A DNA stretch of 6,430 bases from a virus, in the IMG/VR virus record IMGVR_UViG_3300045988_030010. The stretch is one strand, 5' to 3'. Each line of letters starts with the position of its first letter. Within the stretch, counting starts at the first letter, position 1. The notes beneath the pieces were generated by a model. The model saw nothing but the letters and a program-made list of their open reading frames with translations. It was not told where the DNA came from and made no database searches. A program made the position numbers and the translations under genes. Shown here piece after piece: positions 1 through 6,430 of this stretch.

Positions 1-99
1 GATTTTTTTATTATCTTTGTAGTGTAACAAAAAAACAACAAGATTATGAAAAAAAAATTCTATCAGCTAGAAGTAACAATCAAGGGAACAAAAAAAAAC
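1..99. repeat. Terminal redundancy: 1..99 is identical to 6332..6430, so the sequence is circular or tandem. Unit genome length is 6331 nt.
   Basis: Direct comparison of the first 99 nt (gatttttttattatctttgtagtgtaacaaaaaaacaacaagattatgaaaaaaaaattctatcagctagaagtaacaatcaagggaacaaaaaaaaac) with the last 99 nt of the window gives an exact match. The repeat runs through non-coding sequence into the 5' end of a CDS, as expected for a circular genome cut with overlap rather than for att sites. Confidence 0.9.
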
Positions 100-231
100 C
101 ACCACGCCGTATTGATTAACCGATACGAAGACCTCGAAAACGCGAAAAGATTTCTCGAAACGTTAAAAGAAGAAATTAAAAACGATATCGAAAACGTAGT
201 AATCAAATCAATAAACCCAAAAATATTATGA
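46..231 (+). CDS. Small hypothetical protein (61 aa), member 1 of the tandem paralogous small-protein family.
   Basis: ORF MKKKFYQLEVTIKGTKKNHHAVLINRYEDLENAKRFLETL... Its stop overlaps the next start (ATGA at 228..231). It carries the family motif RYEDLENAKRFL. First gene after the promoter. Same strand as all structural genes. Confidence 0.55.
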   Translation: MKKKFYQLEVTIKGTKKNHHAVLINRYEDLENAKRFLETLKEEIKNDIENVVIKSINPKIL

Positions 232-425
232 ATCTTACAAAGTTAGACACAATATACATCGTAGAGATTCGCTACAATGTAAAACAAACAAAGTATAAAA
301 CAATCTCACGATATCGATACTATTCGTTGGAAAAAGCAGAAGAGGGCGCCAGGTTTTTTAAAGCGCAGCTAGGAAACCTAATAGACAGTATAATAATAAC
401 AAAGGAACATTTAGAGATATTATGA
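228..425 (+). CDS. Small hypothetical protein (65 aa), member 2 of the tandem paralogous small-protein family.
   Basis: ORF MNLTKLDTIYIVEIRYNVKQTKYKTISRYRYYSLEKAEEGARFFKAQL... ATGA overlaps at both ends (228..231 and 422..425). Family motif RYRYYSLEKAEEGARFF. Confidence 0.55.
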   Translation: MNLTKLDTIYIVEIRYNVKQTKYKTISRYRYYSLEKAEEGARFFKAQLGNLIDSIIITKEHLEIL

Positions 426-607
426 GTAATCACAGGTGGAATATCGAAATATCATACTATAAGTATCAGTTCGACGGAACAATAAAAAAAATAAGATACT
501 TCACCCACAGCGATAGTAAAAAAGAAGCGTTAAAAGTTCTAAATAAAATCGATGATGAAAGAATAAAATCACTAACTTGGAAACACTATATTTATAAGAT
601 ATATTAA
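422..607 (+). CDS. Small hypothetical protein (61 aa), member 3 of the tandem paralogous small-protein family.
   Basis: ORF MSNHRWNIEISYYKYQFDGTIKKIRYFTHSDSKKEALKVLNKI... ATGA overlap with the upstream ORF. Family motif RYFTHSDSKKEALKVL. Confidence 0.55.
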   Translation: MSNHRWNIEISYYKYQFDGTIKKIRYFTHSDSKKEALKVLNKIDDERIKSLTWKHYIYKIY

Positions 608-624
608 TCTCAAAAAAAAACATT

Positions 625-804
625 ATGAAAGAATGGTTCAAACAACATTGGAAAGACTTACTAATTGCAGTATTAACAGCCATAATAGCAGTACTTAGCG
701 CATGCGGAAGCGCATGGACGTTAGAAGGTAATCAAATAAACGTAAACAATCAAAAAAAATGTCAAAATGATACCATCAAAAACGAAGTACGGAAAGTTCC
801 GTAA
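625..804 (+). CDS. Small putative lipoprotein (59 aa precursor; mature peptide about 34 aa after Cys27). Absent from the supplied ORF track because it is under 60 aa.
   Basis: Translation from ATG 625 is MKEWFKQHWKDLLIAVLTAIIAVLSACGSAWTLEGNQINVNNQKKCQNDTIKNEVRKVP, stop TAA 802..804. It has a basic n-region, a 13-residue hydrophobic h-region and a canonical lipobox L-S-A-C, a classic SPase II signal. The upstream leader is A-rich (A9 at 612..620). It sits between family members 3 and 4. Confidence 0.5.
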   Translation: MKEWFKQHWKDLLIAVLTAIIAVLSACGSAWTLEGNQINVNNQKKCQNDTIKNEVRKVP

Positions 805-835
805 GAGAGAATGGATAAAAAACGCAAAACTGCCT

Positions 836-1024
836 ATGGAAAAATTCAGCGTAGGACAATGGAATTTACTATACGAAGCAGTAGACATCGACAATGGTAC
901 AATACTCACCGGATTTAAAGGTGCAATGAATTGTTGTTTATATTCAGAAGCTATCAACCTCGAAGAAGATATGAGAAAAAAACATATTATTTTATTAACA
1001 ATTAAAGCAATTAAAATTAACTAA
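836..1024 (+). CDS. Small hypothetical protein, member 4 of the paralogous family. Start taken as Met836 (62 aa). The longer track ORF 767..1024 would overlap the lipoprotein ORF.
   Basis: MEKFSVGQWNLLYEAVDIDNGTILTGFKGAMNCCLYSEAINLEEDMRKK... aligns with the others: WNLLYEAV versus WNIEISYY, DGT turn, ILTGF versus FILTLG, LYSEAINL versus FDSQKEAEDFL. Starting at 836 avoids an out-of-frame overlap with 625..804. Choice between 767 and 836 is uncertain. Confidence 0.45.
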   Translation: MEKFSVGQWNLLYEAVDIDNGTILTGFKGAMNCCLYSEAINLEEDMRKKHIILLTIKAIKIN

Positions 1025-1026
1025 TT

Positions 1027-1299
1027 ATGATTCAAACATTAGAAGACTGGCTTGAAAGACAAGATGTCGTACACGTTCGGGCAATCAAACAAGGGGAAGA
1101 AGATAAGTTTATCCTAACACTAGGACAATACAATGTATCACCCATGACATTCGATTCTCAAAAAGAAGCGGAAGATTTTCTAACGGAACATTTTAAATTC
1201 AATAACTTCGAGTTATCCATTATCGGAGCAATGTGCTCACTATTAAGAGACTTAGAAATACAAGATGAATTAAAAAACTCTAAAAAAGAAGAAAAATGA
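1027..1299 (+). CDS. Small hypothetical protein (90 aa), member 5 of the paralogous family. Its stop overlaps the VP1 ORF start (ATGA at 1296..1299).
   Basis: ORF MIQTLEDWLERQDVVHVRAIKQGEEDKFILTLGQYNVSPMTFDSQKEAEDFLTEHF... Family motif MTFDSQKEAEDFL. Longer C-terminal extension than the other members. Confidence 0.55.
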   Translation: MIQTLEDWLERQDVVHVRAIKQGEEDKFILTLGQYNVSPMTFDSQKEAEDFLTEHFKFNNFELSIIGAMCSLLRDLEIQDELKNSKKEEK

Positions 1300-3377
1300 A
1301 AGTAAGTATCGGGAAAAACACCCTCGGAGGTGGTAAAAAAATGATGACACGGTTAAATAATTATAACCGTAGTACACACGACCTTAGCTATGTTTGTCGA
1401 ACATCAGCAGCCGTAGGAACTCTAATTCCTACATTCTATCAATTAGTATTACCAGGAGATACCTTTCCTATACAAACTAGATGTCACACATTGACTCACC
1501 CGACAATCGGACCTTTATTCGGAAGTTTTAAGCAACAAAATGATTTCTTCTTCTGTCCTATGAGGCTATACAATGCCATGCTGCATAATAATGCGTTAAA
1601 TATAGGGTTAAATATAAAACAAGTAAAATTTCCTATATTTCCAATATCTTATAGACTTTACACCGATAAGAGTAAAATGAAAGGAAGTAATGAATCTCTA
1701 TTCAACGAGGTAAATCCAAGCTCACTAGTCGCATATACAGGAGTAAGAGCGCTCAAAACCTTAAAACCGTATGGTACTAACATGAAGGCTTACAACTGCA
1801 TTAAATTAATGATGTATTACGACATTTTTAAAAATTATTATGCAAATAAACAAGAAGAAAATTTTTATGTAATATCTGGAAATACCTACTATACATATAA
1901 ACAAATAGCAACCTCTCTTGTAGCGGGCAATATATCTTTAACAATTGCAAATAGTTCCGATTCCCAAAATAAATGGAATATCGTTACTACGGGTCTGCCA
2001 AACACAAAAGGTAGTACGGGTGATTATCCTAAAGTAAATAAGAATCACCAAGCATGGGTGTTAGCAATTAATCCTTACACACAAGATAAAAAAATTGGAC
2101 AAATCGAGGTAAAAGTAAACTTTAACACAGGGTGGCTAACCGAAACAGGAGGTAACGTAGGAGGTTTAAAAACAATTGCTATCTATGGAACAATAAACAA
2201 CCTTACAGAAAATAAAATTTTAACAAATATTACGGAAAAAGTGGAGACCCCTGTCGAGGGGGTAGAATATTACAAAATAAATACAACTACATTTCTACCA
2301 ACAGAACAAACATTTAGAACATACTTCTACATAAACGAACCAACTATGGCAGCAAGTGTAGAAGCGAGATATAACAGCTATAAGTTAGAGACAATTGACG
2401 ATATGAGAGAAAATATACTCTCAGCGGGAAAGACACAATATGTATCACAAGACCCGTTTATAGTCGATATTTTCAAACCAATACAAACAGAGAACGGTGT
2501 AGCACCAAGTTGCTCGCAACCATTAGTAGGGCTTGCTCTTAAAACATATCAAAGCGATATCAATACAAACTGGGTTAATACCGAATGGATTGACGGAGAA
2601 ACAGGAATTAATGCAATAACAGCTATCGACACATCGGGAGGAAGCTTCACACTCGACACCTTGAATCTTGCGAAAAAAGTATATACCATGCTTAACAGAA
2701 TTGCAGTAAGCGATGGAAGTTATAACGCATGGATTCAAACAGTATATACCAGCGGAGGTTTAAACCATATCGAAACACCTCTATATCTCGGAGGTAGCTC
2801 CCTCGAAATTGAATTTCAAGAAGTTGTAAACAACAGTGGAACGGAAGACCAACCATTAGGTACACTAGCAGGTAGAGGTATTGCAACCAGTCATAAAGGC
2901 GGCAATATCGTATTCAAAGCAGATGAACCCGGATACATATTTTGTATCACTTCTCTCACTCCAAGAGTGGATTATTTTCAAGGTAACGAATGGGATAATT
3001 ATTTATCGACACTAGACGATTTGCACAAACCACAACTTGACGGTATAGGCTTTCAAGACAGATTGTACCGAAGCATAAATGCAAATACATCTTACGAAAT
3101 GTCGAGCATGTCAATCGGTAAACAACCTGCATGGATTGAATACATGACAAATGTTAATAAAACATACGGAAATTTCGCACTTGTAGAAAACGAAGGTTGG
3201 ATGTGCCTCAACCGCATATTCGGAGATATCGATACATATACTACTTATGTATTTCCGCATTTATACAACAACATCTTCGCCGATACAGATATAACTGCGC
3301 AAAATTTTTGGATTCAAATTGCATTTAATACGAAACCACGACGAGTTATGTCAGCAAAAGTTATTCCTAACATTTAA
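1296..3377 (+). CDS. VP1: Microviridae major capsid protein (VP1 / F-protein family), 693 aa from ATG1296. Alternative start ATG1341 gives 678 aa.
   Basis: Longest ORF. The N-terminal region ...RSTHDLSYVCRTSAAVGTLIPTFYQLVLPGDTF matches the conserved Microviridae capsid N-terminus pattern (basic residues, S-x-H/F-D-L-S, hydrophobic stretch, LPGD). The size is typical of the large VP1 of Bacteroidetes-associated Microviridae. GGAGG at 1326..1330 precedes ATG1341, while ATG1296 is coupled to the upstream stop. Confidence 0.9.
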   Translation: MKVSIGKNTLGGGKKMMTRLNNYNRSTHDLSYVCRTSAAVGTLIPTFYQLVLPGDTFPIQTRCHTLTHPTIGPLFGSFKQQNDFFFCPMRLYNAMLHNNALNIGLNIKQVKFPIFPISYRLYTDKSKMKGSNESLFNEVNPSSLVAYTGVRALKTLKPYGTNMKAYNCIKLMMYYDIFKNYYANKQEENFYVISGNTYYTYKQIATSLVAGNISLTIANSSDSQNKWNIVTTGLPNTKGSTGDYPKVNKNHQAWVLAINPYTQDKKIGQIEVKVNFNTGWLTETGGNVGGLKTIAIYGTINNLTENKILTNITEKVETPVEGVEYYKINTTTFLPTEQTFRTYFYINEPTMAASVEARYNSYKLETIDDMRENILSAGKTQYVSQDPFIVDIFKPIQTENGVAPSCSQPLVGLALKTYQSDINTNWVNTEWIDGETGINAITAIDTSGGSFTLDTLNLAKKVYTMLNRIAVSDGSYNAWIQTVYTSGGLNHIETPLYLGGSSLEIEFQEVVNNSGTEDQPLGTLAGRGIATSHKGGNIVFKADEPGYIFCITSLTPRVDYFQGNEWDNYLSTLDDLHKPQLDGIGFQDRLYRSINANTSYEMSSMSIGKQPAWIEYMTNVNKTYGNFALVENEGWMCLNRIFGDIDTYTTYVFPHLYNNIFADTDITAQNFWIQIAFNTKPRRVMSAKVIPNI

Positions 3378-3388
3378 TACTTACGATT

Positions 3389-3724
3389 ATGATTAAACCA
3401 ACTTTTTTTGCAAGACCAATAAAAACAAATTACGAATACCAAGAAGGCGAAAGCATAGAAGACAAAGTTCGTAGAATCACCGAAAACAATGAACCAATTA
3501 CCGATGGTGCACCGATTATCTATACCAATAGAGATGACGGAGTGCTACCAGCATATAATATCCGTACAGATAGGTGGGACGTGGCACAGTCAGCTATGGA
3601 TGCAGTTAATCAAGCAAACCTTGCGAAATCTAAAAACTACGGAAAAATAGAACAACAAGAACAAAATGCCCTCGAATCAAAGGAGATTGGGGATACTCCT
3701 TCGCAACAGGATTCGGTGGGATAA
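3389..3724 (+). CDS. Hypothetical acidic protein (111 aa) between the capsid and pilot-protein genes. Possible internal scaffolding (VP3-like) analogue.
   Basis: ORF MIKPTFFARPIKTNYEYQEGESIEDKVRRITENNEPITDGAPIIYTNRDDGVLPAYNIRTDRWDVAQSAMDAVNQ... It is net acidic (about 20 D/E versus about 12 K/R), on the same strand, immediately after VP1, and followed by a terminator-like hairpin. The function is inferred from position and charge only. Confidence 0.55.
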   Translation: MIKPTFFARPIKTNYEYQEGESIEDKVRRITENNEPITDGAPIIYTNRDDGVLPAYNIRTDRWDVAQSAMDAVNQANLAKSKNYGKIEQQEQNALESKEIGDTPSQQDSVG

Positions 3725-3826: not shown

Positions 3827-3848
3827 GCCCTTGTAAAATTACAAGGGC
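3827..3848. repeat. Perfect 22-nt palindrome GCCCTTGTAAAATTACAAGGGC (10-bp stem, 2-nt loop) in the VP2 upstream region.
   Basis: Positions 3827..3836 are the exact reverse complement of 3839..3848. It is followed by GAAAAATT, not a U-run, so it is not a canonical terminator. Possible operator, RNA-processing or regulatory hairpin. Confidence 0.5.
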
Positions 3849-3872: not shown

Positions 3873-5006
3873 ATGGAATTCAAAAAATCATTCATAAGTG
3901 GATTAGGAAGCTCTGCAGCTAGTACAGGAATAGGATTTATTGGAAATGCATTAAGTCAAGCATTCGGGCTAAGTTGGTCACCCGAAAGAGCTATGAGAGA
4001 GCAAGAAGCTTATAACAAAAGAATTATGGCTTTACAAAACCTATATCAACAACAAGCTGCCGCACAATCTCAGCAATATGCAAAAGATTATTGGGATTAC
4101 ACCAATGCGGAAAATCAAGTAAGACACTTGAAAAATGCAGGATTAAATATCGGCTTAATGTATGGACAAAGCGGAGCCGGTGGTATGGGAGCTAGCGGAG
4201 GGGCTCGACAAGAAAGTCCAGACCAAGCACAGGGAAATCCAATAGGAATGGCCTTACAAGTTCAACAACTCGAACAACAAAGAAGAATGAATGACGCTCA
4301 AATTGCACTAACAGAAGCACAAGCTAATAAAGCAGGAGCAGAAGCTAATAAAATTACTGGTGTAGATACACAAGAAGCCTTAAAGAGAATTGAAGAAGCT
4401 GGTTCTCGAATAGATTTAAATCTAAAAGAAGGTAATTACAAAGACGCTCTAACAGATTTAACAAAAGCTGAAAAAGAGGCTACAGACGCTCTAAAAGCAC
4501 TTAGAGAAATGCAAGAAGGTTTAACAAAAGCTGAAATAAGTCAAGCCTTCGCCATAGCAAGCTATTATAGCGAAAAAGCTAATACAGAGTATTGGACAAA
4601 AGAAAATGAAAAAATTCAAAATGAATATCTAAAAGACACTTACTATGACAGAGTAGACGCAGCATATTATAACAATGCCGTAGCAATAACCTTAGCAGCA
4701 AAATACAAAAGTGATAAGGAAGTCAACGAACAACAGATAAAACATCTTCAAGCAAGTATCAAAGAACTGGAAGCTCTCGCCGATAAACATAATTGGGATA
4801 AAGAAACGTACCGTAAACATGTCGAAGGTATGATTGAACGTTGGGAAGAACAAACCTTTAACGAAAGAATCGGACTAGGCCTGGAATTCGGAGAAAACAT
4901 TGTAGAAATGCTGTACAAAGGACGCAGAAGGAAAAGCAGTGTAAAAACCAAATCAACCAGACAAGGCAAGACGGTAACAACAGAAACCTATACAGAATCT
5001 TATTGA
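3873..5006 (+). CDS. VP2: Microviridae VP2-like minor capsid / DNA pilot protein (377 aa).
   Basis: Position immediately downstream of VP1 and upstream of Rep. Small-residue-rich N-terminus SFISGLGSSAASTGIGFIGNALSQAFG. Gly-rich tract GLMYGQSGAGGMGASGGARQ. Long predicted coiled-coil (EAQANKAGAEANKITG...KAEKEATDALKALREMQEGLTKAEI). Basic C-terminal tail. These are the hallmarks of gokusho/alpa-type VP2 pilot proteins. Confidence 0.7.
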   Translation: MEFKKSFISGLGSSAASTGIGFIGNALSQAFGLSWSPERAMREQEAYNKRIMALQNLYQQQAAAQSQQYAKDYWDYTNAENQVRHLKNAGLNIGLMYGQSGAGGMGASGGARQESPDQAQGNPIGMALQVQQLEQQRRMNDAQIALTEAQANKAGAEANKITGVDTQEALKRIEEAGSRIDLNLKEGNYKDALTDLTKAEKEATDALKALREMQEGLTKAEISQAFAIASYYSEKANTEYWTKENEKIQNEYLKDTYYDRVDAAYYNNAVAITLAAKYKSDKEVNEQQIKHLQASIKELEALADKHNWDKETYRKHVEGMIERWEEQTFNERIGLGLEFGENIVEMLYKGRRRKSSVKTKSTRQGKTVTTETYTESY

Positions 5007-5007
5007 T

Positions 5008-6138
5008 ATGTGTCTATATCCCACTTTTATTAAAAACCCAAAGTATAAACCTAATAAAAAAAATAAAGGGAAACCTCCTGTTTGTAAAGATAGGAGGCTT
5101 CTCTATATACCGGTGAAGTGTGAGTGCTGTATCGAATGCAGAAAACAAAAGCAAAGAGAATGGAGAGTCAGATTAGAAGAAGAGTTACGGTCGAACTTCG
5201 GATATTTCGTAACCTTAACCATTTCTCCAGAAGGTATCGAAGAATTAGAGCAAAAGACTGGATTAAAATGGAAAGAAAATCCAAACGAAATCGCTTCGAA
5301 AGGGCTACGATTATTTTTAGAAAGAGCCCGAAAAGATACAAAAAAGAGCATACGTCACTGGTGTGTCACAGAACTCGGAGAGGATAACGACCGAATTCAT
5401 TTACACGGCATTTTTTTCGGGCAAAAAAGTGCAGAACTGATAAAAAAACATTGGAAATACGGATTTTCATTTATCGGACGATATTGTAGCAGCAAGAGTG
5501 TCAACTATATCACAAAGTACATGCTTAAAGTCGATATTAAACACCCAGAATTTAAACAAATTGTATTAGCCAGTGCAGGAATTGGAGCAGGATACATGGA
5601 TAGACTAGATTATCTATGGCAAAAACAGAATTATAAAAATATCAACATAGCCACCTATACATTCAGAAACGGTACAAAAATGGCCATGCCAAAATACTAT
5701 AAAAACAAAATATTCACGGAAAAAGAGTGTGAAAAAATGTGGATTAATAATCTTAATAGAGGGTTATTGTGGATTTATGGAGAAAAAGTAAAAGCTGACG
5801 ACTGGAAAACTATCGACAATCTCAGAGAATATTGGCAAAGATATGGACGCGAAACAATGGGTGACAATCCTATCGCATGGAATGCTATGAAAGAACGAAG
5901 AAAAGAGGAAAAACAACGAAAAGCTATCGCCGAAGAACGTCGAAAAGCTGAAAAATTCAGCACGGAAAATCTAACAGAGTTACCGTTACAGGTCGATTTT
6001 CCTATGCAAGAGAAAGAGGAAAAATGGAAAGATATTATCAATCAAAATGTTAAAGATAATATGTGGACATTTGAACAAGTGAGAAGGTGCACGACAGCAG
6101 AGCATTACGACGCTTTGAGTGAAATTGAGGTAGCGTGA
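5008..6138 (+). CDS. VP4: Microviridae replication initiation protein (VP4 / gene A-like HUH rolling-circle endonuclease), 376 aa.
   Basis: Rolling-circle motifs: motif I FVTLTI (nt 5206..5223); motif II HLHGIFF (nt 5398..5418; HUH); motif III with two tyrosines, YITKYMLK (nt 5506..5529), matching the Microviridae Rep pattern Y-x-x-K-Y-x-x-K. The N-terminus MCLYP... carries the cluster C26, C38, C40, C41, C44. A K/E/R-rich C-terminal segment follows. The start is 2 nt after the VP2 stop. Confidence 0.9.
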   Translation: MCLYPTFIKNPKYKPNKKNKGKPPVCKDRRLLYIPVKCECCIECRKQKQREWRVRLEEELRSNFGYFVTLTISPEGIEELEQKTGLKWKENPNEIASKGLRLFLERARKDTKKSIRHWCVTELGEDNDRIHLHGIFFGQKSAELIKKHWKYGFSFIGRYCSSKSVNYITKYMLKVDIKHPEFKQIVLASAGIGAGYMDRLDYLWQKQNYKNINIATYTFRNGTKMAMPKYYKNKIFTEKECEKMWINNLNRGLLWIYGEKVKADDWKTIDNLREYWQRYGRETMGDNPIAWNAMKERRKEEKQRKAIAEERRKAEKFSTENLTELPLQVDFPMQEKEEKWKDIINQNVKDNMWTFEQVRRCTTAEHYDALSEIEVA

Positions 6139-6319: not shown

Positions 6320-6350
6320 TTGACAAAAGGGGATTTTTTTATTATCTTTG
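6320..6350 (+). promoter_or_regulatory. Candidate promoter for the small-ORF operon, reading across the genome junction. As a Bacteroidetes type it is cTTG(6319..6322)-20 nt-TATCTTTG(6343..6350, repeated at 12..19). As a sigma70 type it is TTGACA(6320..6325)-17 nt-TATCTT(6343..6348).
   Basis: Motifs read directly in the sequence. The spacings fit the Bacteroidetes -33 TTTG / -7 TAnnTTTG architecture (19-21 nt) and the canonical 17-nt -35/-10 spacing. It lies about 25 nt upstream of the first ORF start at 6377 (repeated at 46). The downstream leader is A-rich with no Shine-Dalgarno sequence, as is typical for Bacteroidetes. Confidence 0.45.
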
Positions 6351-6430
6351 TAGTGTAACAAAAAAACAACAAGATTATGAAAAAAAAATTCTATCAGCTA
6401 GAAGTAACAATCAAGGGAACAAAAAAAAAC
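6332..6430. repeat. Second copy of the 99-nt terminal redundancy, identical to 1..99.
   Basis: Exact identity to positions 1..99. Contains a repeat copy of the promoter -7/-10 element and the first 18 codons of the 46..231 ORF. Confidence 0.9.
6377..6430 (+). CDS. Second copy of the 5' end of the 46..231 ORF (first 18 codons), truncated by the window end. An artefact of the circular overlap.
   Basis: Identical to 46..99 (MKKKFYQLEVTIKGTKKN...). Confidence 0.6.
   Translation, partial: MKKKFYQLEVTIKGTKKN

What the first reader, a model, noticed from the sequence alone, without database searches (positions are those of the whole stretch)
625..804. Unannotated 59-aa lipoprotein ORF embedded in the small-gene array, a candidate single-gene lysis / BRP-like or exclusion protein
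MKEWFKQHWKDLLIAVLTAIIAVLSAC|GSAW... is a textbook lipoprotein signal with a lipobox (LSAC). The mature peptide is only about 34 residues. Microviridae outside the phiX174 group have no known lysis gene. Very small lipoproteins, such as colicin release (BRP/Kil) proteins and entericidin-type peptides, cause envelope permeabilisation or lysis. The ORF is missing from the 60-aa-minimum ORF track, which makes it an easily overlooked candidate for the missing lysis function. A superinfection-exclusion lipoprotein is the alternative. It also interrupts the paralogue array between members 3 and 4, and out of frame it overlaps the longer 767 start of member 4.
Basis: partly seen in the sequence, partly recalled or inferred. 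Interest (0 to 1): 0.7.

Follow-up and report, generated by a model that had tools for sequence, protein, structure and literature searches.

The report
Small conserved lipoprotein in gut microvirus
A 59-codon gene in this small gut bacteriophage is real, conserved in thousands of relatives that infect Bacteroides-type bacteria, and encodes the virus's only membrane-targeted product, which makes it the best candidate for the unknown factor that bursts the host cell, although no function has been tested.

Summary
ORF 625-804 (+) encodes a 59-aa protein with a charged N-terminus, a hydrophobic helix and a canonical lipobox (L24-S25-A26-C27). A lipobox ORF alone arises by chance in about 7% of shuffled windows, so conservation is what makes it a gene. 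Homologues fill 820 protein clusters on microvirus-sized contigs and sit in the same slot upstream of the capsid gene. dN/dS is 0.07 (signal) and 0.11 (mature, non-overlapped). Cys27 is invariant, and position -1 is G/S/A in 158 of 159 members.

- Most relatives have Glu at -2, which is non-canonical.
- The last 12 codons are constrained by the overlapping downstream gene, whose 767 start is genuine.
- A related family (3354 clusters) matches NCBIfam "smalltalk".
- Chromosomal smalltalk genes in gut Bacteroidales lie directly upstream of signal-less Amidase_2 genes, a holin-endolysin-like layout.

The window has no muralytic enzyme and no other membrane protein. Related microviruses that do carry endolysin-like genes lack this ORF, but they form a separate clade.

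Lysis is the best-supported function (about 0.4) and is untested. Exclusion is less likely. No homology to BRP, Rz1, entericidin or protein E was found.

The parts
625..804 (+). Gene for a 59-aa small pre-lipoprotein (the finding)
   Evidence: The ORF is. It has 28 close clusters and 820 family clusters. dN/dS is 0.175 overall in this frame, against 0.50 and 1.78 in the other two frames. Gene callers predict it in relatives.
609..624 (+). A-rich translation-initiation context (CAAAAAAAAACATT) directly upstream of the ATG; no Shine-Dalgarno sequence
   Evidence: The sequence is. The context TATTAA(T/C)CTCAAAAAAAACA(C/T)TATG is conserved in L098, L099, L102 and L103, and a related A-rich tract is present in L100, L101, L104 and L105. 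That A-rich, SD-less starts are typical of Bacteroidota is general knowledge, not tested here.
625..702 (+). Signal-peptide or membrane-helix module: n-region M1-D11 with W4 and W9, then h-region L12-A26
   Evidence: The Kyte-Doolittle maximum of 2.64 is. AlphaFold2 predicts a helix over residues 2-30. This is the most strongly constrained part of the gene, with dN/dS 0.07.
694..705 (+). Lipobox L24-S25-A26-C27; the Cys27 codon is 703-705
   Evidence: The PS51257-type rule is met. Cys is invariant in alignments A1, A3 and A4. Across 159 family members, -1 is G/S/A in 158 and -3 is hydrophobic in 149.
703..750 (+). Conserved core of the mature peptide, C27-GSAWTLEGNQINVNN-42
   Evidence: C27, G28, W31, N36 and N41 are invariant across divergent members, including MG945502 and Dulem virus 224. 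dN/dS is 0.11 for codons 27-47. AlphaFold2 gives no confident fold, with pLDDT below 50.
767..804 (+). 38-nt out-of-frame overlap with the downstream gene; here selection acts on the downstream frame
   Evidence: dN/dS is 1.41 in the lipoprotein frame and 0.065 in the +1 frame. This rests on 12 codons and 5 genomes, so it is tentative.
767..1024 (+).
   Evidence: The N-terminus MIPSKTKYGKF(R/K) is conserved in all relatives. The internal Met at 836 is replaced by Phe in L100 and L101. Gene callers give 85 aa.
6320..6350 (+). Likely promoter for the small-gene block, including the finding: TTGACA-17 nt-TATCTTTG. It is repeated at 12-19 because the window overlaps itself by 99 nt.
   Evidence: It is the only + strand TAnnTTTG motif that lies in an intergenic region. 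No separate promoter-like site lies directly upstream of 625. This is a consensus match only.

Best explanation
ORF 625-804 is a real gene of a 6331-nt circular microvirus of Bacteroidales.

Product. It is a 59-aa precursor made of three parts: a conserved Trp-containing charged N-terminus, a membrane helix ending in the lipobox LSAC, and a 33-residue polar tail whose conserved part is C-GS(A/T)W-x-(L/I)-x-GN-x-(I/V)-N-V-N-N.

Most likely processing. The precursor is inserted through Sec. Lgt lipidates Cys27 and signal peptidase II cleaves before it. This leaves a short lipopeptide tethered on the periplasmic side; there is no acidic surface-export signal after the Cys. The unusually conserved signal helix stays in the inner membrane.

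Most likely role. It is the phage's envelope-disrupting (lysis) factor. It would be co-expressed with the capsid gene from the single upstream promoter and would accumulate until it permeabilises the membrane, or releases or activates a murein hydrolase. This is functionally comparable to bacteriocin-release (BRP/Kil) lipoproteins or to a holin-like trigger.

Shown: the gene is real, is under purifying selection, is widespread and syntenic, has membrane-targeting and lipobox features, and is the only such product in a genome with no muralytic enzyme.

Inferred: lipidation, localisation and the lysis function itself.
For: 1. The gene is real. dN/dS is 0.07 for residues 1-26 and 0.11 for residues 27-47 in this frame, and at least 0.5 in the other frames. 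The wider family gives 0.20.
2. The family is large and virus-specific. It comprises 820 clusters, and the 120 listed are all on contigs of about 7 kb or less.
3. Small lipoprotein-like ORFs are near-universal in the clade. One sits on the coding strand in 71 of 92 distinct related contigs, against 1 hit on the reverse strand. Every complete genome (with terminal repeats) of the 5.8-6.5 kb clade has one.
4. Lipidation is the most economical reason for the invariant Cys. Position -1 is G/S/A in 158 of 159 members and -3 is hydrophobic in 149 of 159. A distant homologue, MG945502, has an unrelated signal ending in a canonical LTSC before the same CGSTW motif. The related TMS-type family has no second Cys in its tail, so an intramolecular disulfide cannot explain the invariance.
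5. This is the only membrane-grade hydrophobic ORF in the window. No peptidase, amidase or lysozyme domain is present.
6. Endolysin-like genes occur only in related genomes that lack the lipoprotein ORF. These are M15_3 in L057, L094 and L035; a LAS-type 108-aa peptidase in L062, L073 and L082; and Amidase_2 in L034. The contingency is 0 of 71 against 5 of 21. The hypergeometric p of about 4e-4 is my own arithmetic and is not corrected for phylogeny.
7. There is a link to a lysis-like cassette. The sister TMS-type family matches NCBIfam smalltalk above its cut-off, at 50.6 and 29.6 bits against 24.7, and hhalign gives 97% probability. Chromosomal smalltalk genes lie immediately upstream of Amidase_2 genes whose catalytic domain starts at residue 2-3, so they have no signal peptide. 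In one case the two genes overlap (L130, L163, L166, L167).
8. The small protein does not co-vary with the capsid (r = -0.06 over 210 pairs). The mature motif stays constant across capsids of 50-90% identity. This fits a conserved host target better than a variable receptor.
9. The one integrated prophage of this lineage, L036 in a Phocaeicola MAG, lacks the gene.
Against: - There are no experimental data.
- No similarity to any characterised lysis protein was found.
- The mature part has no confident predicted structure.
- The endolysin-lipoprotein exclusivity is largely a clade effect. The endolysin-bearing genomes form a separate small-genome clade, and several complete genomes there have neither gene.
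- The window's own family matches smalltalk only weakly: hhalign 52% against chromosomal smalltalk and 85% against the TMS-type family, in comparisons dominated by a membrane helix. There is no HMM hit.
- Most family members have Glu at -2, which the standard lipobox rules do not accept. Lipidation of the family as a whole is therefore unproven.
- Characterised small phage lipoproteins more often act in exclusion (Llp, Cor) than in lysis.
Confidence: 0.4

Rival explanations
1. Superinfection-exclusion or receptor-masking lipoprotein, like T5 Llp or phi80/N15 Cor. The lipopeptide would bind and block the outer-membrane receptor. This would protect infected or lysogenic cells from further infection and stop progeny being lost on cell debris.
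For: Small phage-encoded lipoproteins with known functions are often of this type (general knowledge). Alpavirinae-like phages can be temperate: prophages were found in Phocaeicola and Dysgonomonas. The tail sequence diverges strongly between sub-families (GSTW-type against TMS-type), as might be expected in an arms race.
Against: - The mature conserved core is only about 16-21 residues and is predicted to be disordered. That is much smaller than the folded exclusion lipoproteins.
- The strongest constraint is on the signal helix, not on the exported part.
- There is no co-variation with the capsid, which carries receptor specificity.
- The mature motif is constant across capsids of 50-90% identity.
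- The gene is near-universal in a clade with tiny genomes, but absent from the one integrated prophage of the lineage.
- There is no hit in PADLOC.
Confidence: 0.2
2. Not a lipoprotein. It would be an uncleaved, N-in/C-out single-pass membrane peptide whose invariant Cys at the periplasmic end of the helix forms intermolecular disulfides. It would act as a holin-like or membrane-depolarising peptide.
For: - Glu at -2 in 94 of 159 members, and N, K or R at -1 in a few distant variants, are poor signal peptidase II sites.
- The n-region is long (11-14 residues), carries an invariant Trp and is highly conserved. The helix is 15-18 residues long. These features suit a functional membrane helix better than a disposable signal.
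- Chromosomal smalltalk peptides end 1-4 residues after the Cys, so the helix must be the functional part there.
- Small membrane peptides directly upstream of Amidase_2 are typical of holin-endolysin cassettes, as also seen in L106-L114.
Against: - Positions -1 (small) and -3 (hydrophobic) follow the lipobox rule almost without exception.
- Independent lineages have re-created canonical boxes in front of the same Cys or just upstream of it: LSAC, LTSC, VAAC, IIGC and VISC-QGC.
- Canonical holins have a charged cytoplasmic C-terminus, which this protein lacks.
Confidence: 0.15
3. A membrane-anchored accessory factor with another role, neither lysis nor exclusion. Examples are tethering replication or assembly to the membrane, modulating host envelope physiology, or acting as a signalling lipopeptide.
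For: Function is unknown for every member, including NCBIfam smalltalk, which is typed 'hypoth_equivalog'. Complete microvirus genomes exist that have neither this ORF nor an endolysin (L059, L077, L081). Lysis can therefore be achieved in other ways in this group, for example by overprinted genes.
Against: No positive evidence points to any specific alternative role. The absence of any other lysis candidate in the window leaves lysis as the unassigned essential function.
Confidence: 0.15
4. A chance ORF that is not expressed.
For: A lipobox-bearing ORF of this kind arises by chance in about 7% of shuffled windows.
Against: There is frame-specific purifying selection. There are hundreds to thousands of conserved homologues at a syntenic position. 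The reverse-strand control gave 1 hit against 71 on the coding strand.
Confidence: 0.01

Closest known systems
NCBIfam NF033879 'smalltalk protein' (30-35 aa peptides of Bacteroidales chromosomes; function unknown)
   Same: Same host group. Same architecture: K-rich N-terminus with Trp, a helix, then a small residue followed by Cys. The window has WKDLLIAVLTA...SAC; smalltalk has WKSILQIIVTVLTA...TSC. The sister microviral family (TMS-type) scores above the family cut-off and hhalign gives 97% probability.
   Different: The window protein itself does not reach the model: 9.5 bits for its N-terminus and none for the whole protein. hhalign gives only 52%. It carries a 33-residue tail after the Cys, whereas smalltalk has 1-4 residues. 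It is not next to an Amidase_2 or HU-HIG gene.
Bacteriocin-release / colicin lysis proteins (BRP, Kil; Pfam Lysis_col)
   Same: Both are very small lipoprotein precursors with a polar mature lipopeptide of about 28-33 residues. In BRP the signal peptide is itself functional and stable. That parallels the unusually strong constraint on the signal helix here. Both are candidate envelope permeabilisers encoded by a small mobile genome.
   Different: There is no sequence similarity. The genetic context is different: a phage, not a colicin operon. The host phylum is different. Dependence on outer-membrane phospholipase A is unknown.
Phage o-spanin Rz1 and unimolecular spanins
   Same: Both are small phage-encoded lipoproteins with a lysis role. 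A partly conserved second Cys (Cys46) could allow intermolecular disulfides, as in Rz1.
   Different: There is no partner inner-membrane spanin and no C-terminal membrane helix. The mature part is not proline-rich. No endolysin or holin is present to act with. The PHROG spanin hit (E = 0.006) covers only the signal region.
T5 Llp / phi80 Cor exclusion lipoproteins
   Same: Both are phage-encoded lipoproteins exported to the envelope.
   Different: The mature part is much shorter and has no predicted fold. The second Cys is not conserved. There is no co-variation with the receptor-binding capsid. No homology was detected.
phiX174 protein E and ssRNA-phage single-gene lysis proteins
   Same: Both are small membrane-targeted products of a minimal phage genome that lacks a muralytic enzyme. 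In both, the membrane helix is the most constrained part.
   Different: The gene is not overprinted inside another gene; it has only a 38-nt terminal overlap. The topology is lipoprotein-type (N-in, C-out, with a lipobox). There is no sequence similarity. The target is unknown.

Membership tests
Bacterial lipoprotein precursor (signal peptidase II substrate; PROSITE PS51257-type rule) | Lys or Arg within the first 7 residues | tested here: met
   K2 and K6 are present.
Bacterial lipoprotein precursor (signal peptidase II substrate; PROSITE PS51257-type rule) | Uncharged h-region followed by a lipobox [LVI][ASTVI][GAS]C, with Cys at position 15-35 | tested here: met
   The box is L24-S25-A26-C27, preceded by the uncharged stretch L12-V23. 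The same rule is met by chance in 7% of shuffled windows.
Bacterial lipoprotein precursor (signal peptidase II substrate; PROSITE PS51257-type rule) | Lipobox conserved in homologues | tested here: inconclusive
   Cys is invariant. Position -1 is G/S/A in 158 of 159 members and -3 is hydrophobic in 149 of 159. However, -2 is Glu in 94 of 159, which the rule does not allow. Canonical boxes occur in the window clade (LSAC) and in distant members (LTSC, VAAC, IIGC).
Bacterial lipoprotein precursor (signal peptidase II substrate; PROSITE PS51257-type rule) | Call by dedicated predictors (SignalP 6, LipoP) and actual diacylglyceryl modification and cleavage | not testable with these tools
   No such predictor is available here. 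Lipid labelling and globomycin tests are needed.
NCBIfam NF033879 smalltalk protein | HMM score at or above the curated cut-off of 24.7 bits | tested here: not met
   The whole window protein has no hit. Its N-terminal 29 aa score 9.5 bits (E = 0.82). None of the 24 members of alignment A4 hits at E <= 0.01. The related TMS-type microviral proteins do pass, at 50.6 and 29.6 bits.
NCBIfam NF033879 smalltalk protein | Length of about 30-35 aa, ending 1-4 residues after the Cys | tested here: not met
   The window protein continues for 32 residues after Cys27. Chromosomal members end at ...SC plus 1-4 residues.
NCBIfam NF033879 smalltalk protein | Remote homology of the N-terminal module (profile-profile comparison) | tested here: inconclusive
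   hhalign of A4 against chromosomal smalltalk gives 52% probability (E = 1.5e-4), with Trp, Lys and Cys in register. A4 against the TMS-type family gives 85%. The TMS-type family against smalltalk gives 97%. Membrane helices inflate such scores.
NCBIfam NF033879 smalltalk protein | Neighbourhood: adjacent to HU-HIG and/or signal-less Amidase_2 genes (as observed here in gut contigs) | tested here: not met
   The window has no such genes. The neighbourhood was seen in L130, L163, L166 and L167.
Bacteriocin-release / colicin lysis lipoproteins (Pfam Lysis_col) | Sequence membership in the family | tested here: not met
   There is no Pfam hit even at E <= 10.
Bacteriocin-release / colicin lysis lipoproteins (Pfam Lysis_col) | Small lipoprotein with a mature peptide of about 28-35 residues | tested here: met
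   The predicted mature peptide is 33 residues. This is a resemblance in form only.
Bacteriocin-release / colicin lysis lipoproteins (Pfam Lysis_col) | Causes quasi-lysis or release dependent on outer-membrane phospholipase A | not testable with these tools
   This needs expression experiments.
Spanins (Rz/Rz1 or unimolecular) | Partner inner-membrane spanin gene, or a C-terminal membrane helix in the same protein | tested here: not met
   There is no other membrane-grade hydrophobic ORF in the window and none at the C-terminus of this protein.
Spanins (Rz/Rz1 or unimolecular) | Sequence membership | tested here: not met
   The only hit is a PHROG Rz-like spanin match at E = 0.006 over residues 7-35, which is the signal region. 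There is no Pfam hit.
Exclusion lipoproteins (Llp / Cor type) | Folded mature domain able to bind a receptor; linkage with the receptor-binding protein | tested here: not met
   The mature part has pLDDT below 50 and no secondary structure. The second Cys is variable. Identity of the small protein and of the capsid are uncorrelated (r = -0.06).
Exclusion lipoproteins (Llp / Cor type) | Blocks adsorption or DNA entry of the cognate phage | not testable with these tools
   This needs infection assays.
phiX174 E-type single-gene lysis protein | Sequence membership; gene overprinted within another gene | tested here: not met
   There is no Pfam or PHROG hit to protein E. The ORF is free-standing except for its last 38 nt.

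The most novel reading that the evidence does not exclude
The smalltalk-like lipopeptide is the single lysis gene of the large Bacteroidales microvirus clade and defines a new class of single-gene lysis protein of lipoprotein type. It may carry only the trigger. As a viral homologue of the chromosomal smalltalk peptide, it would release or activate the host's own signal-less Amidase_2, which is encoded next to smalltalk in many Bacteroidales genomes. The phage would then borrow its endolysin from the host.
Probability: 0.15. Interest if true: 0.85.

Novelty: new variant of a known kind. Interest (0 to 1): 0.62.

Why it matters
Microviruses of this type are among the most abundant phages of the human gut, and how they leave their hosts is unknown for those without a peptidase gene.

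This work turns an unannotated 59-codon ORF into a defined family: 820 plus 3354 protein clusters, present in most genomes of the clade. It has clear testable features: Cys27, the lipobox, the CGS(T/A)W...GN...NVNN motif and a conserved signal helix.

If it is the lysis factor, it would be the first lipoprotein-type single-gene lysis protein in Microviridae. It would also be a new handle on envelope weak points in Bacteroidota.

The link to chromosomal smalltalk peptides next to signal-less amidases gives a first functional hypothesis for that orphan bacterial family.

If it is instead an exclusion factor, it would bear on phage-phage competition in the gut.

Tried and rejected
- Nucleotide search of the whole genome against GenBank phages found no match. 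The closest deposited capsid is 58% identical.
- tblastn of the protein against phages gave one weak, unannotated hit in MG945502. That hit proved to be a true homologue.
- Pfam, PHROGs, NCBIfam, PADLOC and PDB sequence searches of the window protein found nothing meaningful.
- AlphaFold2 with a 24-sequence alignment gave only the membrane helix. The tail is unstructured, so no fold search was run.
- A profile search of 1.84 billion representatives found only 13 hits. Twelve are small proteins; the 11 whose sequences were read, and P0002, carry the CGS(T/A)W motif. The thirteenth, P0158, is an 848-aa repetitive protein without the motif, probably spurious. No informative distant relative emerged.
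- tblastn of a smalltalk-like N-terminus against plasmids and phages found no match.
The full 65-aa query worked.
- Amidase-based retrieval from IMG/VR returned amidase cassettes flanked by other small membrane ORFs, with no smalltalk-like ORF beside them.
- I considered the endolysin-lipoprotein exclusivity as strong evidence and downgraded it. The endolysin-bearing genomes form a separate clade.
- I considered an intramolecular C27-C46 disulfide as the reason for Cys invariance and rejected it. Cys46 is variable in the window clade and absent from TMS-type tails.
- I considered 836 as the start of the next gene and rejected it in favour of 767.
- Literature searches for a microvirus lipoprotein, lipobox or lysis gene found no prior description.
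Full report
**What the window is.** The 6430-nt window overlaps itself by 99 nt, so it represents a 6331-nt circle. All recognisable genes lie on the + strand:
- a block of small ORFs (46-231, 228-425, 422-607, the finding at 625-804, 767-1024 and 1027-1299);
- the major capsid protein at 1296-3377 (Pfam Phage_F; PHROG major head protein);
- a 111-aa ORF at 3389-3724;
- a pilot-like protein at 3873-5006;
- the replication initiator at 5008-6138.

This is a Microviridae genome of the Bacteroidales-associated, Alpavirinae-like kind. No GenBank phage matches it at the nucleotide level, and the closest deposited capsid is 58% identical. Integrated relatives occur in an uncultured Phocaeicola MAG and in two Dysgonomonas genomes.

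**Check of the observation.** The ORF is exactly as described: 625..804, ATG start, 59 aa, MKEWFKQHWKDLLIAVLTAIIAVLSACGSAWTLEGNQINVNNQKKCQNDTIKNEVRKVP.
- It passes a PROSITE PS51257-type lipoprotein rule with Cys at position 27.
- It is the only + strand ORF with a membrane-grade hydrophobic segment, 2.64 against 1.24 for the next best.
- The predicted mature peptide is 33 residues.
- On its own the lipobox is weak evidence. Seven per cent of shuffled windows contain such an ORF.

**Conservation makes it a gene.**
- A word-indexed search found 28 clusters at 73-95% identity. Cys27 and L-(S/G)-A-C are invariant, and WTLEGNQINVNN is nearly invariant.
- Gene callers predict the 59-aa product at the same position in full-length relatives, in the order small genes - lipoprotein - 85-aa gene - 88-94-aa gene - capsid.
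- In five distinct genomes of the window's sub-clade, dN/dS in the ORF's frame is 0.07 for codons 1-26 and 0.11 for codons 27-47. The other two frames give 0.5-3.4.
- In 24 IMG/VR relatives the pooled value is 0.20.

**Two corrections to the anatomy.**
- In the last 12 codons, which form the 38-nt overlap, dN/dS is 1.41 in the lipoprotein frame and 0.065 in the frame of the downstream gene. The sample is small. The C-terminal NDTIKNEVRKVP is therefore probably shaped by its neighbour.
- The neighbour's long 767 ATG is its real start. The N-terminal extension MIPSKTKYGKF... is conserved, whereas the internal Met at 836 is replaced by Phe in L100.

It is only partly supported. Iterative search links 46-231 with 228-425 but links none of the other small genes.

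**The wider family and the lipobox question.**
- Homologues occur in 24 of the first 29 related IMG/VR loci.
- Most are 72-aa proteins of the form MKEEIKQFLKENWKTVAGIIGAAILLAISYIFEGC-GSTWRISGNTVNVNNKC... Here the residue at -2 is Glu, which the standard lipobox patterns exclude.
- A profile search returned 820 clusters. The 120 listed are all on contigs of about 7 kb or less, and none carries a name other than 'hypothetical protein'.
- Across 159 retrieved members, -1 is G/S/A in 158 and -3 is F/I/L/M/V in 149. Position -2 is E in 94, S in 27 and G in 25.
- Distant members keep the motif C-G-S-T-W-x-(I/L)-x-(G/D/E)-N behind quite different signals, several of them canonical: LTSC in the unannotated MG945502 ORF 1410-1583, plus VAAC, IIGC and TGSC.
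- A sub-clade has acquired a canonical VISC three residues upstream of the original Cys.
- I therefore regard lipidation at this Cys as the best explanation of its invariance. It is textbook only for the window's own sub-clade and unproven for the Glu(-2) majority.

**A larger superfamily and the smalltalk link.**
- Microviruses with capsids only 38-50% identical to the window's carry, one or two genes upstream of the capsid gene, a 60-72-aa ORF of the same build. It has a K/E-rich N-terminus with an invariant Trp, a helix, a box such as (V/L)Q(S/A)C, LGGC, ITGC or GVSC, and then a tail of the form TMS(L/M)S(I/V)xKNN...DSTxIN.
- A relaxed detector finds exactly one such ORF in 71 of 92 distinct contigs on the coding strand, against one hit on the reverse strand.
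- This TMS-type family has 3354 clusters at E <= 1, and the 120 best listed are all on microvirus-sized contigs.
- Profile-profile comparison aligns it with the window's family with the Cys in register, at 85% and 76% probability.
- Five of ten TMS-type members match NCBIfam NF033879 'smalltalk protein'. Two are above the curated cut-off, at 50.6 and 29.6 bits against 24.7. The window's own family does not match.

**Genomic context of chromosomal smalltalk.**
- A metagenome scan recovered chromosomal smalltalk genes on gut contigs of up to 105 kb. They are 30-35-aa ORFs such as MKKETWKSILQIIVTVLTALCTSLGVTSCM and end 1-4 residues after the Cys.
- They are homologous to the TMS-type N-termini (hhalign 97%) and only possibly to the window family (52%).
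- In four independent contexts (L130, L163, L166, L167) the smalltalk gene lies directly upstream of an Amidase_2 gene whose catalytic domain begins at residue 2-3, so there is no signal peptide. In one case the genes overlap. An HU-HIG gene is usually on the other side.
- A small membrane peptide immediately upstream of a signal-less muramidase or amidase is the classic holin-endolysin layout. This is an inference from gene order, not a tested function.

**Evidence bearing on function.**
- The window encodes no peptidase, amidase or lysozyme domain and no other membrane protein.
- Among related genomes, endolysin-like genes occur only where the small lipoprotein ORF is absent. These are M15_3 in L057, L094 and the Dysgonomonas prophage L035; a 108-aa LAS-type peptidase that hits Pfam HH_signal in L062, L073 and L082; and Amidase_2 in prophage L034. 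These genomes form a separate small-genome clade, so this is clade-level rather than repeated replacement.
- Some complete genomes in that clade have neither gene.
- Similarity of the small protein is uncorrelated with capsid similarity (r = -0.06 over 210 pairs). For example, window against L001 is 90% for the capsid and 43% for the small protein, while window against L102 is 62% and 85%. The modules therefore recombine. The conserved mature motif is kept across very different capsids, which fits a conserved host target better than a strain-specific receptor.
- The integrated Phocaeicola prophage L036 lacks the gene.
- The only convincing promoter-like element on the + strand is TTGACA-17-TATCTTTG in the intergenic region upstream of the small-gene block. 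This suggests co-expression with the structural genes.
- AlphaFold2 predicts a helix over residues 2-30 and an unstructured tail.

**Interpretation.**
- Shown: a real, strongly constrained, widespread and syntenic gene for a small Cys-anchored membrane peptide with lipoprotein-type signals. It is the only envelope-directed product of this genome.
- Inferred: Sec export, Lgt and signal peptidase II processing at Cys27, and periplasm-facing tethering. The last rests on the absence of an acidic lipoprotein export signal after the Cys, as known for Bacteroidota surface lipoproteins (general knowledge).
- Inferred function: envelope disruption at the end of infection. The very low dN/dS of the signal helix and its invariant Trp suggest that the helix itself is functional, as in bacteriocin-release proteins with a stable signal peptide and as in chromosomal smalltalk, where the helix is almost the whole protein.
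- I put lysis at about 0.4, exclusion at about 0.2, an uncleaved holin-like membrane peptide at about 0.15 and another role at about 0.15.

**Comparison with what is known.** In form the protein resembles BRP/Kil lysis lipoproteins, Rz1, Llp/Cor and protein E. It fails the sequence-membership test for all of them and lacks a spanin partner. Its nearest named relative is NCBIfam smalltalk, of which it is not a member by score, length or neighbourhood.

**Literature.** Searches found no description of a lipoprotein or lipobox gene in microviruses. Published views are:
- only phiX174 lysis is understood, and some Alpavirinae and gokushoviruses carry M15 peptidases as possible endolysins (PMC3394797);
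- lysis-associated accessory genes occur in some families, and small peptides of about 65 aa remain unassigned (PMC9239249);
- the first Bacteroides microvirus isolate, phiHBP1, has an M15A peptidase (PMC13064476).

**Verdict.** The lipoprotein reading is well supported for the window. The lysis reading is plausible, now has an independent lead through smalltalk and amidase, and is directly testable, but it remains unproven.

Noticed in passing
window 1-99 and 6332-6430: There is a 99-nt terminal redundancy, so the window is a circular 6331-nt genome read slightly more than once.
   Followed up: yes
window 6320-6350 (= 12-19): TTGACA-17 nt-TATCTTTG combines a sigma-70-like -35 element with the Bacteroides-type TAnnTTTG -7 motif. 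It is the only such + strand site in an intergenic region and is probably the promoter of the small-gene and capsid block.
   Followed up: partly
window 767-1024: The downstream 85-aa gene really starts at 767. Its N-terminal 13 codons, not the lipoprotein's C-terminus, are under purifying selection in the 38-nt overlap.
   Followed up: yes
window 46-1299: Within the small-gene array, only 46-231 and 228-425 are detectably paralogous. The 1027-1299 family is found in about 98 ORFs across the fetched loci, so it looks like a near-core gene just upstream of the capsid gene. 46-231 has a weak sub-threshold Pfam SPOR hit (E = 0.008).
   Followed up: partly
window 5136-5387: An 83-aa, very basic ORF lies in an alternative frame inside the replication-initiator gene. 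It has 45 iterative-search hits in relatives. It could be an overprinted DNA-binding protein or merely a shadow of Rep conservation.
   Followed up: no
L032 (MZ089806, Microvirus mar60) 5927-6004; L086 1408-1506: Two microviruses carry 25-32-aa ORFs that consist of little more than a smalltalk-like helix ending at or just after a lipobox Cys (MKDWVKALLQAIAAAIGALLGGVSC*, ...LLIIYLLACIMLERYFSA*). These are short forms resembling chromosomal smalltalk.
   Followed up: partly
L130 2198-2769; L163 102-601; L166 2961-4927; L167 11-1350: In gut Bacteroidales contigs the 30-35-aa smalltalk gene sits between an HU-HIG DNA-binding gene and a signal-less Amidase_2 gene. This holin-endolysin-like cassette was not mentioned in any paper that the two smalltalk literature searches returned.
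   Followed up: partly
L034 3511-3936 and 7408-7551; L035 7576-7992: Dysgonomonas microvirus prophages carry an Amidase_2 or an M15_3 peptidase directly upstream of the capsid gene, plus separate small ORFs of 47-86 aa with membrane-grade hydrophobic segments and no Cys anchor. This looks like a different lysis solution in the same genomic slot.
   Followed up: partly
L062 5240-5566, L073 1870-2196, L082 107-433: A 108-aa protein of small-genome microviruses hits Pfam HH_signal above threshold and has the H-x6-D...H-x-H pattern of LAS/M15 zinc peptidases. It is probably a minimal endolysin.
   Followed up: partly
window versus L001, L102 and others: Capsid identity and small-lipoprotein identity are uncorrelated (r = -0.06). 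This indicates recombination between the small-gene module and the structural module.
   Followed up: yes
window 3827-3848: A perfect 10-bp hairpin (GCCCTTGTAA..TTACAAGGGC) lies in the 148-nt intergenic region between the 111-aa gene and the pilot gene. It may be a terminator or an origin element.
   Followed up: no
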